64,000 nt of DNA from Escherichia coli (lineage in GTDB: Bacteria > Pseudomonadota > Gammaproteobacteria > Enterobacterales > Enterobacteriaceae): assembly GCF_013122565.1 (NCBI RefSeq), contig NZ_CP053258.1, one strand, 5' to 3'. The position numbers and the translations under genes are program-made. The notes under the pieces were generated by a model that worked only from the letters and a program-made list of their open reading frames with translations, was not told the DNA's origin and ran no database searches. Positions 9,705-52,485 of the stretch are shown here, piece by piece; within the stretch, counting starts at the first letter, position 1, and every line of letters starts with the position of its first letter.

Positions 9705-9770
9705 AGTGATATTTTACTATCAACCCGAGGCCTCCTATATGCAGAACACATGTAGAGTGCCTCTTACTGA
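9705..9770 (-). ncRNA. sokC: Putative sokC antisense RNA of the hokC/mokC toxin-antitoxin locus
   Basis: Placed by analogy with hok/sok organisation (antisense RNA overlapping the mok initiation region); the boundaries were not determined from the sequence. Confidence 0.3.
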
Positions 9771-9948
9771 CCGTAAGGTCAAGGAGAAGAGAGCAATGAA
9801 GCAGCATAAGGCGATGATTGTCGCCCTCATCGTCATCTGTATCACCGCCGTAGTGGCGGCGCTGGTAACGAGAAAAGACCTCTGTGAGGTTCACATCCGA
9901 ACTGGCCAGACGGAGGTTGCTGTTTTCACGGCTTACGAATCCGAGTAA
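9739..9948 (+). CDS. mokC: MokC, overlapping regulatory reading frame of hokC
   Basis: 69-codon frame (MQNTCRVPLTDRKVKEKRA...) ending at the same stop as hokC. Confidence 0.65.
   Translation: MQNTCRVPLTDRKVKEKRAMKQHKAMIVALIVICITAVVAALVTRKDLCEVHIRTGQTEVAVFTAYESE
9796..9948 (+). CDS. hokC: HokC (Gef) small membrane toxin, type I toxin-antitoxin
   Basis: 50 aa, MKQHKAMIVALIVICITAVVAALVTRKDLCEVHIRTGQTEVAVFTAYESE, matching Hok-family toxin. Confidence 0.9.
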   Translation: MKQHKAMIVALIVICITAVVAALVTRKDLCEVHIRTGQTEVAVFTAYESE

Positions 9949-11182: not shown

Positions 11183-11270
11183 CTTTTTTAAATTGCCCCT
11201 AGATGAATGCACGGGCGGAGAGGAAATTCCCCTTCGCCCGTGTCAGTATAATTACCCGTTTATAGGGCGA

Positions 11271-19675: not shown

Positions 19676-19792
19676 TCAATGTCGGATGCGGCGTGAACAC
19701 CTTATCCGGCCTACAAAAGCATGCAGATTCAATATATTGCAGAATTCACGTAGGCCTGATAAGACGCGCCAGCGTCGCATCAGGCGCTGAAT
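19676..19792. repeat. REP (repetitive extragenic palindromic) elements
   Basis: GCCGGATGCGGCGTGAAC.CCTTATCCGGCCTAC-type palindromes between yaaA and yaaX. Confidence 0.7.
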
Positions 19793-25015: not shown

Positions 25016-25041
25016 GGTTGTTACCTCGTTACCTTTGGTCG

Positions 25042-25077
25042 AAAAAAAAGCCCGCACTGTCAGGTGCGGGCTTTTTT
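25042..25077 (-). terminator. thr attenuator hairpin
   Basis: Minus-strand transcript AAAAAAGCCCGCACCUGACAGUGCGGGCUUUUUUUU between thrL and thrA. Confidence 0.8.
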
Positions 25078-25095
25078 CTGTGTTTCCTGTACGCG

Positions 25096-25164
<69 letters not shown>

Positions 25165-49058: not shown

Positions 49059-50609
49059 ATGCCCACTTCTCATGAAAATGCACTGCAACAACGTTGCCAG
49101 CAAATTGTCACCAGTCCAGTGCTTAGCCCGGAGCAGAAGCGCCATTTTCTGGCACTGGAAGCAGAAAACAATCTGCCTTACCCGCAGCTTCCTGCCGAAG
49201 CCCGCCGCGCGCTGGATGAGGGTGTAATCTGCGATATGTTTGAAGGTCATGCGCCGTACAAACCGCGCTATGTCTTACCCGATTACGCCCGTTTTCTGGC
49301 GAACGGTTCCGAATGGCTGGAGCTGGAAGGCGCGAAAGATCTTGATGACGCACTCTCTCTGCTGACCATTCTTTACCACCACGTACCGTCGGTCACATCG
49401 ATGCCGGTCTACCTGGGGCAACTGGATGTGTTGCTGCAACCGTATGTTAGAATTCTAACACAAGACGAGATTGATATTCGAATAAAACGTTTCTGGCGTT
49501 ACCTCGACAGAACCCTGCCAGACGCCTTTATGCACGCCAATATCGGCCCATCTGATTCGCCCATTACCCGCGCGATCTTACGTGCAGACGCAGAGTTGAA
49601 GCAGGTTTCACCGAACCTGACCTTTATCTACGATCCTGAAATCACCCCTGATGACCTGCTGCTGGAAGTGGCGAAGAACATCTGTGAATGTAGCAAACCG
49701 CACATCGCCAACGGTCCGGTGCATGATAAAATTTTCACAAAAGGGGGCTACGGGATTGTGAGCTGTTACAACTCACTGCCGCTGGCAGGTGGTGGCAGCA
49801 CGCTGGTACGCCTTAACCTGAAAGCCATTGCCGAGCGCAGCGAATCGCTGGATGACTTCTTTACGCGCACTCTACCGCACTACTGCCAGCAGCAGATCGC
49901 CATCATCGATGCGCGGTGTGAATTCCTCTATCAACAATCACACTTCTTTGAGAATAGCTTCCTGGTGAAAGAAGGGCTGATTAACCCTGAACGTTTTGTG
50001 CCAATGTTTGGCATGTATGGGCTGGCGGAAGCGGTTAACTTGCTGTGTGAGAAAGAAGGGATTGCCGCGCGCTACGGTAAAGAAGCCGCCGCAAATGAAG
50101 TGGGTTATCGCATCAGCGCGCAACTGGCGGAGTTTGTCGCCAATACCCCCGTGAAATATGGCTGGCAAAAACGCGCCATGTTACACGCACAGTCGGGGAT
50201 CAGTTCCGATATCGGCACCACGCCGGGCGCGCGTTTGCCGTATGGCGATGAGCCAGATCCGATCACCCATCTGCAAACTGTCGCCCCGCATCATGCTTAT
50301 TATTATTCCGGCATCAGCGACATTCTGACGCTCGACGAAACCATCAAACGTAACCCGCAGGCACTGGTACAGCTTTGCCTCGGTGCCTTTAAAGCCGGAA
50401 TGCGTGAATTTACCGCCAATGTCAGCGGTAACGATCTGGTTCGCGTTACCGGTTATATGGTGCGTTTGTCGGATTTAGAAAAATATCGCGCCGAAGGTTC
50501 ACGTACCAACACCACCTGGCTGGGCGAAGAAGCCGCACGCAACACTCGTATTCTGGAACGCCAGCCGCGCGTGATAAGCCATGAACAGCAGATGCGCTTT
50601 AGTCAGTAA
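49059..50609 (+). CDS. yjjI: Glycyl-radical-enzyme-like protein YjjI (DUF3029)
   Basis: 516 aa, followed by and overlapping its activase-like partner yjjW. Confidence 0.9.
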
Positions 50610-51444
50610 GATTATCCCCTTCTCCTGCGTTGACGGGCCAGGCAGTCGTCTGGCTCTGTTTTTGCAGGGCTGCAATCTGCGCTGCAAAAACTGTCACAAT
50701 CCGTGGACGATGGGACGTTGCAATGACTGCGGGGAGTGCGTGCCACAGTGTCCGCATCAGGCGTTGCAGATTGTTGACGGCAAAGTGGTGTGGAACGCTG
50801 TGGTCTGCGAGCAGTGTGATACCTGCCTGAAGATGTGTCCGCAACATGCCACGCCAATGGCGCAGTCCATGAGCGTGGATGAGGTGCTTAGCCATATCCG
50901 CAAAGCAGTGCTGTTTATCGAAGGGATAACGGTAAGCGGCGGCGAAGCCACGACCCAGCTGCCGTTTGTGGTGGCGCTGTTTACTGTTATCAAAAACGAT
51001 CCGCAACTGCGCCACCTCACCTGCCTGGTGGACAGTAACGGTATGTTGAGCGAAACCGGCTGGGAAAAATTGCTCCCGGTGTGCGACGGCGCAATGCTCG
51101 ATCTCAAAGCGTGGGGGAGCGAATGTCATCAACAACTCACCGGACGCGATAATCAGCAGATTAAGCGCAGCATCTATTTGCTGGCAGAGCGCGGCAAGCT
51201 GGCGGAACTGCGTTTGCTGGTGATCCCTGGCCAGGTGGATTATTTGCAACACATCGAAGAACTGGCGGCGTTTATCAAGGGACTCGGCGATGTTCCGGTA
51301 CGCCTGAACGCGTTTCATGCCCACGGCGTGTATGGCGAGGCGCAAAGCTGGGCGAGCGCCACGCCGGAAGACGTTGAGCCGTTGGCTGATGCGTTAAAGG
51401 TGCGCGGGGTGAGCCGGTTGATATTTCCGGCGCTCTATTTGTGA
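50581..51444 (+). CDS. yjjW: Glycyl-radical enzyme activating (radical SAM) protein YjjW
   Basis: 287 aa with CxxxCxxC (CNLRCKNC) and ferredoxin-like Cys clusters; 29-nt overlap with yjjI. Confidence 0.9.
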
Positions 51445-51712
51445 CATGCCGGATACGGCCTACGGTTCGGCACAGACTTGTAGGCCTGATAAGACGCGTC
51501 AAGCGTCGCATCAGGCATTGTGCGCCAACTGCCGGATGCGGCGTGAACGCCTTATCCGGCCTACGGTTCGGCACAAACCTGTAGGCATGATAAGACGCGA
51601 CAAGCGTCGCATCAGGCATTATGCGCCGACTGCCGGATGCGGCGTAAACGCCTTATCCGGCATTGAGCGCCAACTGCCGGATGCGGCGTGAACGCCTTAT
51701 CCGGCCTACGGC
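51445..51712. repeat. BIME / cluster of at least four REP elements
   Basis: Tandem alternating GCCGGATGCGGCGTGAACGCCTTATCCGGCCTAC and GCCTGATAAGACGCG..GCGTCGCATCAGGC palindromes between convergent yjjW and yjjV. Confidence 0.85.
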
Positions 51713-52485
51713 ACGTTAAACACCGTATACGTGTTATTAAGCAACGCTTGTGCAATCTCATCCGCGGGTTCCGGGCGCAACTCGCAAAGCACGTCAAACA
51801 CCCGCGCAGCCTGTTCCGGGCGGTTAGGCTGCCCCTGAAAGCCGTTGAGCGGCATATCCGGCGCGTCGGTTTCCAGCAACAACGATGCCAGCGGTAATTT
51901 TGCGATGACATCGCGGGTTTTACTGGCGCGTGGATAGGTGATAGTACCGCCTACGCCGATTTTGTAGCCCAGCTGTACAAACCGTTCAGCCTGTTGCTGG
52001 CTACCAGAAAATCCGTGGACAACACCAGCACGCGGCAAATCGTGGCGTTTAAGATGCATCGCCAGTTTGTCGTGCGTGCGCCGTGAATGCAGGATCACCG
52101 GCAGATCGTAGCGTTTCGCCAGTTTCAGTTGTTCGTCGAGCAACCACTGCTGCCTCTCAAATTGCGGATCGTCGCCAAAGAGATCCAGGCCGATCTCTCC
52201 CACCGCCACCACCTTCGCCGGACGCCTTTCCAGCGCCTGCTGTAGCTGATCAAGAGACACATCGCTATGTTTTTCCAACATACCAGGATGCAAGCCCAAT
52301 GCGGCATACAGCGGTTGATAATTTTCCGCTAACGCCTGCACGCGGGCAAAATTTTCCGCCTCTGTCGCCGGAACAATGATCTTGCCTACGCCCGCTTGTG
52401 CCGCGCGTTGCAGGCTGGCCTCTTCATCGCCACTAAACGGCGGGAAATCAAAATGGCAGTGGGTGTCGATAAAACGGCAAATCAA
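51706..52485 (-). CDS. yjjV: TatD-family metal-dependent hydrolase YjjV
   Basis: 259 aa, MICRFIDTHCHFDFPPF... Confidence 0.9.
   Translation of the reverse strand: MICRFIDTHCHFDFPPFSGDEEASLQRAAQAGVGKIIVPATEAENFARVQALAENYQPLYAALGLHPGMLEKHSDVSLDQLQQALERRPAKVVAVGEIGLDLFGDDPQFERQQWLLDEQLKLAKRYDLPVILHSRRTHDKLAMHLKRHDLPRAGVVHGFSGSQQQAERFVQLGYKIGVGGTITYPRASKTRDVIAKLPLASLLLETDAPDMPLNGFQGQPNRPEQAARVFDVLCELRPEPADEIAQALLNNTYTVFNVP

What the first reader, a model, noticed from the sequence alone, without database searches (positions are those of the whole stretch)
51445..51712. Large BIME: at least four tandem REP units between convergent yjjW and yjjV
About 270 bp consists almost entirely of alternating REP palindromes in opposite orientations. 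Such clusters are known in E. coli and bind DNA gyrase and IHF, and they serve as targets for IS insertion and as recombination substrates, so this site is prone to strain-to-strain copy-number variation. Several ORF-track entries in this interval are artefacts of the repeat.
Basis: partly seen in the sequence, partly recalled or inferred. Interest (0 to 1): 0.2.

Follow-up and report, generated by a model that had tools for sequence, protein, structure and literature searches.

The report
Known REP repeat cluster between yjjW/yjjV
The 265 bp between the ends of the convergent genes yjjW and yjjV are an ordinary, already catalogued E. coli cluster of REP hairpin repeats (a BIME-2, REP352 in K-12), present here as a shorter and slightly unusual copy-number variant.

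Summary
Window 51445-51709 fills the whole yjjW/yjjV intergenic space with REP palindromes. There is one collapsed Y remnant, then Z2-Y, Z2-Y and a further Y, giving five complete REPs against 0 expected by chance. The array is built from a 101-bp unit present twice, plus a 44-bp half unit.

It is a BIME-2-type cluster: Y and Z2 REPs with a 14-nt inner linker and a 16-nt outer linker.

It is the counterpart of K-12 REP352a-h, which has four Z2-Y pairs in 419 bp. In a sample of 59 complete E. coli genomes the locus ranges from a single Y REP (33 bp) to five pairs (about 518 bp). Two strains with identical flanks carry one and five pairs.

The window's allele looks like a three-pair allele that lost 57 bp (one Z2 plus a linker). 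This left two Y REPs in direct order, a junction found in none of 5,426 complete E. coli genomes.

The likely role, inferred and not shown here, is a two-way 3'-end hairpin block and transcription attenuator, and a gyrase site. This is ordinary and already known, so interest is low.

The parts
50581..51444 (+). yjjW (YjjW-family glycyl-radical enzyme activase), upstream convergent gene; stop codon TGA at 51442-51444
   Evidence: NCBIfam TIGR04041, 397 bits against a cut-off of 250. RefSeq genomes annotate the matching DNA as yjjW.
51448..51463 (+). Collapsed Y REP remnant GCCGGATACGGC plus CTAC tail, starting 3 nt after the yjjW stop. It still forms a 4-bp GC hairpin.
   Evidence: Strains L002 and L007 carry a full Y REP at this position. 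Predicted hairpin energy is -6.8 kcal/mol on + and -5.9 on -.
51464..51479 (.). 16-nt outer (tail-to-tail) linker ggttcggcacagactt; first base of 101-bp unit 1
   Evidence: Sequence; unit dissection; period 101.
51480..51516 (-). Z2 REP number 1 (GTAG tetranucleotide at 51480-51483 plus the palindrome at 51484-51516)
   Evidence: One mismatch to the Z2 consensus, 0 matches expected by chance. Hairpin energy -20.4 / -21.3 kcal/mol.
51517..51530 (.). 14-nt inner S-type linker attgtgcgccaact
   Evidence: Sequence. It aligns to the linker of the Rfam naRNA4 model.
51531..51564 (+). Y REP number 1 (palindrome 51531-51560 plus CTAC)
   Evidence: No mismatches to the Y consensus. Hairpin energy -21.3 / -19.5 kcal/mol.
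51565..51580 (.). 16-nt outer linker ggttcggcacaaacct; start of 101-bp unit 2
51581..51617 (-). Z2 REP number 2 (GTAG plus palindrome). It carries a C>A change that breaks one stem pair.
   Evidence: One mismatch to the consensus. The Rfam alignment flags a non-standard pair. Hairpin energy is only -13.8 / -14.7 kcal/mol.
51618..51631 (.). 14-nt S-type linker attatgcgccgact
51632..51661 (+). Y REP number 2, lacking its CTAC tail
   Evidence: One mismatch to the consensus. It is followed directly by an S-type linker.
51662..51675 (.). 14-nt S-type linker attgagcgccaact; the atypical Y-S-Y junction, probably the scar of a 57-bp deletion
   Evidence: Alignment to the three-pair allele L005 shows one 57-bp gap here and 4 substitutions overall. 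The junction is absent from 5,426 complete E. coli genomes and from 100,044 species-representative genomes.
51676..51709 (+). Y REP number 3 (palindrome 51676-51705 plus CTAC at 51706-51709). The CTAC tail contains the yjjV stop codon (TAG on the - strand, 51706-51708).
   Evidence: No mismatches to the consensus. ORF end coordinate. The K-12 counterpart REP352 is reported to overlap yjjV by 2 nt (bioRxiv 10.1101/2024.07.17.603846).
51483..51662 (-). Two full two-hairpin units (inverted Y, S linker, Z2) on the yjjV-sense strand that match Rfam naRNA4 (RF02564)
   Evidence: 83.1 and 77.0 bits against a gathering score of 59.5, full model length 1-77.
51706..52485 (-). yjjV (TatD-family metal-dependent hydrolase), the other convergent gene
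   Evidence: NCBIfam NF008522, 571.6 bits against a cut-off of 481.

Best explanation
This is the yjjW/yjjV allele of a known E. coli BIME-2-type REP cluster, called REP352a-h in K-12. It is an array with the layout Y-(linker-Z2-S-Y)n, where n is between 2 and 3 here. Its REP content is one collapsed Y remnant, two Z2-Y pairs and one extra Y. The extra Y was most likely left when a three-pair allele lost 57 bp (a CTAC tail, the 16-nt linker and one Z2 REP), probably by slippage between the similar stem feet ATCCGGC and ATCAGGC.

Mechanism, inferred from the family and not shown here. Both convergent transcripts run into strong REP hairpins of about -20 kcal/mol each. These hairpins would block 3'-to-5' exonucleases and attenuate read-through in a partly Rho-dependent way, so the array serves as a two-way 3'-end element for yjjW and yjjV. 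As DNA, the Y REPs of a BIME-2 are preferred gyrase cleavage sites, which suits a place where convergent transcription piles up positive supercoils. The outermost Y REP starts at the yjjV stop codon, so it may also dampen yjjV translation termination.

Copy number is labile and apparently unconstrained. The extra units are probably near-neutral products of slippage, recombination or RAYT activity.
For: Anatomy:
- The Y and Z2 consensus matches have 0 expected by chance.
- The array has a 101-bp period.
- The unit dissection is the same as in K-12 and eight other strains.

Family:
- The architecture fits the published BIME-2 definition: z2 plus y REPs, a short S linker, tandem copies, and a copy number that varies between strains (PMC3333891).
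- It matches Rfam naRNA4, in effect a BIME-2 unit model (it aligns as inverted Y, linker, Z2), above the gathering score.

Locus identity:
- MG1655 has four Z2-Y pairs in the same intergenic space.
- That K-12 element is named REP352a-h and is reported to overlap yjjV by 2 nt.

Copy-number lability:
- The distance between the flanks is about 33, 115, 216, 317, 418 or 518 bp across 59 sampled genomes.
- Strains L003 and L006 have identical flanks (0/237 and 0/240 differences) but carry one and five pairs.

Deletion origin:
- Against the three-pair allele L005 there is a single 57-bp gap plus 4 substitutions.
- The third linker differs by 1 base from the unit-1/3 type and by 3 bases from the unit-2 type.

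Hairpins:
- Individual REP energies range from -13.8 to -21.3 kcal/mol on both strands.
- Whole-region fold z-scores are -9.1 and -8.1.

Function by analogy:
- REP325 acts as both terminator and stabiliser, and REPs between convergent genes go with higher expression of both genes (bioRxiv 10.64898/2026.03.23.713779).
- Gyrase cleavage is enriched in BIME-2 elements and prefers Y over Z2 (PMC6379681).
- REPs within 15 nt of a stop codon are reported to stall ribosomes (Liang 2015, as summarised in PMC12306157).
Against: - No functional data exist for this locus or this strain. All of the mechanism is by analogy.
- Alleles ranging from 1 to 10 or more REPs coexist in E. coli, which argues that REPs beyond the first contribute little that is selected.
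- The cited preprint found no general lengthening of mRNA half-life by terminal REPs.
- yjjV and yjjW were not found in the held, partly truncated, supplements of the gyrase Topo-Seq paper.
- The deletion-versus-duplication inference rests on a handful of substitutions.
Confidence: 0.9

Rival explanations
1. The array is essentially a selfish or neutral repeat. The REP doublets (REPINs) would be amplified and trimmed by the REP-associated tyrosine transposase (RAYT, TnpA-REP) or by replication slippage, and the units beyond the first REP would have no local function.
For: Copy number runs from one REP to five pairs among E. coli strains, and it differs (one versus five pairs) between strains with identical flanks. 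TnpA-REP cleaves and recombines BIMEs in vitro, and the authors propose that this drives copy-number variation (PMC3333891).
Against: Every allele examined keeps at least one REP abutting both stop codons, which suggests the basal REP is retained. REP presence between convergent genes correlates with higher expression. This view is not exclusive of the main explanation.
Confidence: 0.3
2. The units are genes for naRNA4-like, HU-binding, nucleoid-associated RNAs that help condense the chromosome.
For: There are four matches to Rfam RF02564 above the gathering score, the best at 83.1 bits, on the yjjV-sense strand. naRNA4 from REP325 was reported to bridge cruciforms together with HU (PMC4550694).
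Against: The Rfam model aligns as a generic BIME-2 unit (inverted Y, linker, Z2), so any BIME-2 scores; another one at 59376-59458 also does. A 2026 preprint that includes the same senior author reports that REP325 and naRNA4 do not measurably compact the nucleoid and form no stable ternary complex. No promoter-like site lies in or next to the array.
Confidence: 0.08
3. It is an IHF-binding BIME (BIME-1, also called RIP or RIB).
For: None specific to this element. It shares the Y REP with BIME-1.
Against: There is no Z1 REP and no long L linker. None of the four IHF-consensus matches in the window falls in 51445-51712. IHF sites are a feature of the BIME-1 L linker only.
Confidence: 0.02
4. 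One of the ORFs across the array (for example 51446-51691, 81 aa) encodes a real small protein.
For: The ORFs exist mechanically.
Against: None has a Pfam match at E<=0.1. No CDS is annotated there in the other alleles fetched. The 101-bp and 44-bp units shift the reading frame whenever copy number changes, so the ORF cannot be conserved. The peptide is the Arg/Cys/Pro-rich read-through typical of REP sequence.
Confidence: 0.01

Closest known systems
E. coli K-12 REP352a-h (the yjjV-yjjW intergenic BIME)
   Same: Same locus, same flanking genes, same collapsed Y remnant, same 101-bp unit (linker, Z2, S, Y), and the same overlap of the last REP tail with the yjjV stop codon.
   Different: K-12 has four Z2-Y pairs (eight REPs) in 419 bp. 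The window has two pairs plus a lone Y in 261 bp, joined by a Y-S-Y junction not seen in K-12 or in any of the 5,426 complete genomes.
REP325 / naRNA1-6 (the yjdM-yjdN BIME-2), Rfam RF02564
   Same: Same two-hairpin Y-linker-Z2 unit repeated in tandem. The window's units match the model full length at 77-83 bits.
   Different: REP325 has six units and lies between tandem genes inside an operon. This array lies between convergent genes, so both strands are 3'-UTR-like. Transcription and HU binding have not been tested here.
Gyrase-cleaved BIME-2 elements (for example sucC-sucB and tldD-yhdP)
   Same: Same Y/Z2 composition. Y REPs are the preferred cut sites (PMC6379681).
   Different: No cleavage data were found for the yjjV-yjjW array.
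BIME-1 / RIP / RIB elements
   Same: They contain a Y REP and lie at the 3' ends of transcription units.
   Different: BIME-1 is a single Y-L-Z1 copy with an IHF site in the L linker. Here there is no Z1 REP, no L linker and no IHF consensus.
REPIN-RAYT systems
   Same: Inverted REP doublets of about 100 bp that change copy number within a species.
   Different: RAYT dependence cannot be assessed from this window, and I did not look for a RAYT gene in it.

Membership tests
REP / palindromic unit (PU) | An imperfect palindrome of about 30-40 nt with a conserved GTAG (or CTAC) tetranucleotide at its foot | tested here: met
   Five units match the Y or Z2 consensus with 0-1 mismatch. Four of the five carry GTAG or CTAC; Y number 2 has lost its tail.
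REP / palindromic unit (PU) | Many dispersed copies in the genome, in extragenic positions | tested here: met
   Further Y REPs lie at 19681, 33839, 59317 and 59428 in the window. The 551-bp query found a median of 32 places per E. coli genome. The array is intergenic apart from 3 nt shared with the yjjV stop codon.
BIME-2 | [quoted passage not shown] | tested here: met
   There are two Z2(-)/S(14 nt)/Y(+) pairs. The definition is from PMC3333891.
BIME-2 | Tandem repetition of the pair, with short flanking (s/l/r) linkers | tested here: met
   Period 101 bp x 2.0 copies at 93% matches; 16-nt outer linkers.
BIME-2 | Strict alternation of REP orientation along the array | tested here: not met
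   The last two Y REPs (51632-51661 and 51676-51705) are direct repeats separated by an S-type linker. Strictly, this end is an atypical or derived arrangement.
BIME-2 | [quoted passage not shown] | tested here: met
   Alleles range from 1 REP to 5 pairs in the sampled genomes. Identical flanks carry one versus five pairs.
BIME-2 | Bound and cleaved by DNA gyrase | not testable with these tools
   Literature only (PMC6379681). This locus was not found in the held supplements.
BIME-1 / RIP (IHF-binding) | A Z1 REP plus a long L linker carrying an IHF site | tested here: not met
   No Z1 match in the locus. No WATCAANNNNTTR match inside 51445-51712.
Rfam RF02564 naRNA4 | Covariance-model score at or above the gathering threshold (59.5 bits) | tested here: met
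   83.1 and 77.0 bits on the - strand; 64.2 and 61.0 bits on the + strand.
Rfam RF02564 naRNA4 | Expressed as a discrete HU-binding RNA | not testable with these tools
   No expression data for this genome. The function itself is disputed.
Intrinsic (Rho-independent) terminator | A GC-rich hairpin followed by a U-tract | tested here: not met
   The terminator scan found nothing in the array; its only hit, at 51899-51917, is inside yjjV. REP hairpins lack a T-run.

The most novel reading that the evidence does not exclude
The unique Y-S-Y junction could be a natural footprint of excision of a single REP plus linker by the REP-associated transposase, rather than of replication slippage. One possible register of the 57-bp deletion ends at ATCA|GGC. 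On the opposite strand this is the published type-I TnpA-REP cleavage site TGCC|TGAT of a Z2 REP. If so, the allele would be in vivo evidence for the BIME excision model, which so far rests on in vitro work.
Probability: 0.08. Interest if true: 0.3.

Novelty: already known. Interest (0 to 1): 0.07.

Why it matters
It matters little beyond annotation.

- The interval should be labelled as a REP/BIME-2 array (the REP352 counterpart), and the ORFs across it should be suppressed.
- The Rfam naRNA4 hits should be read as 'BIME-2 unit', not as a distinct sRNA gene.
- The locus is a convenient natural series for testing how REP dosage affects two convergent 3' ends, because it ranges from one REP to five pairs, sometimes on identical flanks.
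- The Y-S-Y junction is a simple lineage marker for the source strain.

Tried and rejected
- **IHF site.** A search for WATCAANNNNTTR gave 4 hits in the window against 2.6 expected, none of them in the array.
- **Intrinsic terminator or promoter.** The scan found nothing in the array.
- **Coding potential.** Five ORFs overlapping the array had no Pfam match.
- **44-bp duplication origin.** I considered this and judged it less likely than a 57-bp deletion.
- **RAYT-mediated deletion.** Only one of the two boundaries can be placed on a known C|T cleavage site, and the register is ambiguous by 4 positions, so I kept it only as the speculative case (and the sequence).
- **Y-S-Y junction elsewhere.**
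  - No full match in 5,426 complete E. coli genomes. The best was one partial match (91% coverage, 90% identity) at another locus in strain KMi006.
  - No hits in 100,044 species-representative genomes.
- **IS insertion at this site.** The only sampled genome with half coverage (EC100) turned out to have a 149-bp deletion inside yjjW and a normal two-pair BIME. The other roughly 33 low-coverage records could not be listed with the tools.
- **Source organism.** The best identity to any complete E. coli genome is 98.8-99.0% over three different segments. The source is therefore a lineage of the E. coli group absent from that collection. Shigella is possible but was not shown.
- **Papers.**
  - Liang et al. 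2015 (on REPs close to stop codons) is not held, so I cite it only through PMC12306157.
  - A search of the Topo-Seq supplements for yjjV and yjjW found nothing, but the files were cut when stored.

Full report
**1. Observation**

The stretch 51445-51709 lies between the stop codon of a 287-aa ORF on the + strand (50581-51444) and the stop codon of a 259-aa ORF on the - strand (51706-52485).

- NCBIfam identifies the two ORFs as the YjjW glycyl-radical activase (397 bits, cut-off 250) and the YjjV metal-dependent hydrolase (572 bits, cut-off 481). yjjI lies upstream of yjjW, and an ORF in the position of K-12's patatin-like phospholipase gene yjjU lies upstream of yjjV.
- RefSeq E. coli genomes annotate the matching DNA the same way.
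- The sequence itself is a chain of REP palindromes.
- A 30-nt Y consensus matches three times in the interval with 0-1 mismatch.
- A 33-nt Z2 consensus matches twice on the opposite strand.
- Dinucleotide shuffles of the window gave no match to either pattern.
- Tandem Repeats Finder reports a 101-bp period (2.0 copies, 93% matches) followed by a 44-bp period (2.2 copies). The repeat finder gives the same picture.

There are five complete REPs plus one collapsed remnant.

**2. Anatomy**

Reading 5' to 3' on the + strand:

| Coordinates | Feature |
|---|---|
| 51445-51447 | cat |
| 51448-51463 | collapsed Y REP GCCGGATACGGC + CTAC |
| 51464-51479 | 16-nt outer linker |
| 51480-51516 | GTAG + Z2 (inverted) |
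| 51517-51530 | 14-nt S-type linker |
| 51531-51564 | Y + CTAC |
| 51565-51580 | 16-nt outer linker |
| 51581-51617 | GTAG + Z2 (inverted) |
| 51618-51631 | S-type linker |
| 51632-51661 | Y with no CTAC tail |
| 51662-51675 | a third S-type linker |
| 51676-51709 | Y + CTAC |

- The final CTAC contains the yjjV stop codon (TAG on the - strand, 51706-51708).
- The remnant begins 3 nt after the yjjW stop codon.
The last two Y REPs are direct repeats.
- Each Y and the first Z2 fold to about -20 kcal/mol on either strand. The second Z2 carries a C>A change that breaks a pair, giving about -14 kcal/mol. The remnant still forms a 4-bp GC hairpin of about -6 kcal/mol.
- The whole interval folds far better than shuffles on both strands, with z = -9.1 and -8.1.
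- Y and Z2 stems differ by a compensatory change, visible directly in the sequences and folds: GCCGGAU/AUCCGGC against GCCUGAU/AUCAGGC.

**3. What it is**

The composition fits the published definition of a BIME-2 (PMC3333891). That definition requires Y plus Z2 REPs, a short inner linker, tandem copies with short outer linkers, and a copy number that varies between strains.

- There is no Z1 REP and no L linker.
- None of the four IHF-consensus matches in the window falls in the array.
- IHF binding, which belongs to the L linker of BIME-1, is therefore not expected here.
- Rfam's naRNA4 model (RF02564) aligns to the window as inverted Y, linker, Z2, which is a BIME-2 unit.
- It matches the two full units on the yjjV-sense strand at 83.1 and 77.0 bits (gathering score 59.5), and matches more weakly on the other strand.
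- Another BIME at 59376-59458 also scores, so the hit marks the repeat family rather than a specific sRNA gene.

**4. Comparison with other genomes**

In MG1655 the same intergenic space is 419 bp. It holds the same remnant followed by four Z2-Y pairs. A mobilome study calls that element REP352a-h (EcoCyc naming), notes that it overlaps yjjV by 2 nt, and lists it among eight REP regions protected from exonuclease under stress (bioRxiv 10.1101/2024.07.17.603846).

I searched with a query made only of the two 250-bp flanks. It matched 5,423 of 5,426 complete E. coli genomes. From the coordinates of the 59 evenly spaced hits that covered both flanks, I calculated the distance between the flanks:

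| Distance between flanks (bp) | Genomes |
|---|---|
| about 33 | 2 |
| about 115 | 16 |
| about 216 | 10 |
| 221 or 234 | 2 |
| about 317 | 5 |
| about 418 | 7 |
| about 518 | 17 |

- Dissection of representative alleles shows a single Y REP abutting both stop codons, then 1, 2, 3, 4 and 5 Z2-Y pairs, plus variants with a full Y on the left or a truncated Y on the right.
- Strains OkiPb01716 (one pair) and FDAARGOS_1266 (five pairs) have identical flanks, with 0/237 and 0/240 differences. Copy number therefore changes faster than point substitutions accumulate.

**5. The window's own allele**

The 260-bp interval between my anchor sequences (261 bp intergenic) matched none of the sampled alleles.

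- No place in any of the 5,426 genomes had the full 551-bp structure.
- A 65-nt probe across the Y-S-Y junction had no full match. The best was one partial match (91% coverage, 90% identity) at another locus.
- A degenerate junction pattern found nothing in 100,044 species-representative genomes.
- Aligned to the three-pair allele of the strain with the closest flanks (OkiPb01695), the window differs by four substitutions and one 57-bp gap. The gap removes CTAC, the outer linker, GTAG and one Z2 REP.
- The alternative is a 44-bp duplication of S plus Y in a two-pair allele. It would require the new linker to have drifted at three positions, two of them towards the sequence of the unit-1/3 linker type.
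- I therefore favour the deletion, probably by slippage between the similar stem feet ATCCGGC and ATCAGGC. This is an inference.
- One register of the deletion coincides with a published TnpA-REP cleavage site, but the other end does not. RAYT involvement is only a speculative possibility.

**6. How it most likely works**

Nothing here is shown for this locus. What follows is inferred from the family.

- REPs lie overwhelmingly at 3' ends. About 60% lie between convergent genes.
- The best-studied BIME-2, REP325, acts both as a partly Rho-dependent attenuator and as a stabiliser of the upstream mRNA.
- REPs between convergent genes go with higher expression of both genes, and many fall within predicted bidirectional terminators (bioRxiv 10.64898/2026.03.23.713779).
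- Here both transcripts meet about -20 kcal/mol hairpins within 0-40 nt of their stop codons, and there is no U-tract terminator. A two-way 3'-end block and attenuator is the most economical reading.
- For yjjV the hairpin starts at the stop codon itself. That is inside the 15-nt range in which REPs are reported to stall terminating ribosomes (Liang et al. 2015, as summarised in PMC12306157).
- At the DNA level, BIME-2 elements are enriched for gyrase cleavage. Cleavage prefers Y loops and is independent of transcription (PMC6379681).
- The HU/naRNA chromosome-condensation model (PMC4550694) has been contradicted by later work that includes the same senior author. I rank it low.
- E. coli tolerates anything from one REP to five pairs here, so units beyond the first are probably close to neutral.

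**7. ORFs in the interval**

ORFs of 47, 81, 114, 33 and 99 aa overlap the array.

- None has a Pfam match.
- None of the annotated genomes fetched calls a CDS there.
- The 101-bp and 44-bp units change the reading frame whenever copy number changes.

**8. Verdict**

This is a correct call of an ordinary, already catalogued element. There are two corrections: it is of the gyrase-associated, non-IHF type, and it is not strictly alternating. There is one small addition: the allele is a rare, deletion-derived variant. The source genome is 98.8-99.0% identical to the nearest complete E. coli genome over three segments, so it belongs to a lineage not represented in that collection. Interest is low.

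Noticed in passing
window 59598-59684 (+): There is only one tRNA-Leu(CAG) gene here (ARAGORN and Rfam). K-12 has three tandem copies, leuQ, leuP and leuV, at the same place between rsmC and yjjZ/fhuF. This is a second tandem copy-number difference in the window.
   Followed up: partly
window 59317-59457: Another small BIME (Y, Z2, Y) lies between rsmC (58266-59297) and the tRNA-Leu gene. It also scores as Rfam naRNA4 (70.7 bits at 59376-59458, - strand).
   Followed up: partly
window 51706-51709 and loci L003, L004, L006, L008, L009: The yjjV stop codon sits inside the CTAC tail of the last REP. Some strains have a different yjjV 3' end (a 783-nt CDS instead of 780), with a truncated terminal Y REP (gccggatgctgcctac...). 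The gene/BIME boundary is therefore itself polymorphic.
   Followed up: partly
window 51208-51444 versus 51716-51955: The yjjW-side flank is identical to strains OkiPb01716 and FDAARGOS_1266 (0/237 differences). The yjjV-side flank differs from them at 12/240 positions and is closest to OkiPb01695 (4/240). This hints at a recombination breakpoint in or near the BIME.
   Followed up: no
whole window: No complete RefSeq E. coli genome is more than 99.0% identical over three tested segments. Gene order is otherwise K-12-like across the thrL / 0-min point, in reverse orientation. The source is an E. coli-group lineage absent from that collection, possibly Shigella.
   Followed up: partly
window 5535-9183 (-): Three ORFs of 426, 509 and 253 aa sit between nhaA (4117-5283) and the sok/hok locus. 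The 509-aa ORF resembles a sulfatase, and the 253-aa ORF matches the PRK11528 hypothetical family. From memory, K-12 has only IS186 and hokC there.
   Followed up: no
window 292-2142 (+): A fimbrial usher ORF of 616 aa matches only positions 204-826 of its 826-position NCBIfam profile. It may be truncated or split at the N-terminus.
   Followed up: no
window 9646-9798, 11183-11260, 19715-19757, 25041-25160: Rfam matches above the gathering score: sok antitoxin (117.6 bits), tpke11 (69.6 bits), ES036 (38.8 bits, immediately next to a Y REP at 19681-19710), and the thr operon leader (121 bits).
   Followed up: no
locus L013 (E. coli EC100) 3070-3784: In this strain yjjW is annotated as a frameshifted pseudogene. 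Alignment shows a 149-bp internal deletion (yjjW positions 623-772), while its BIME is a normal two-pair allele.
   Followed up: yes
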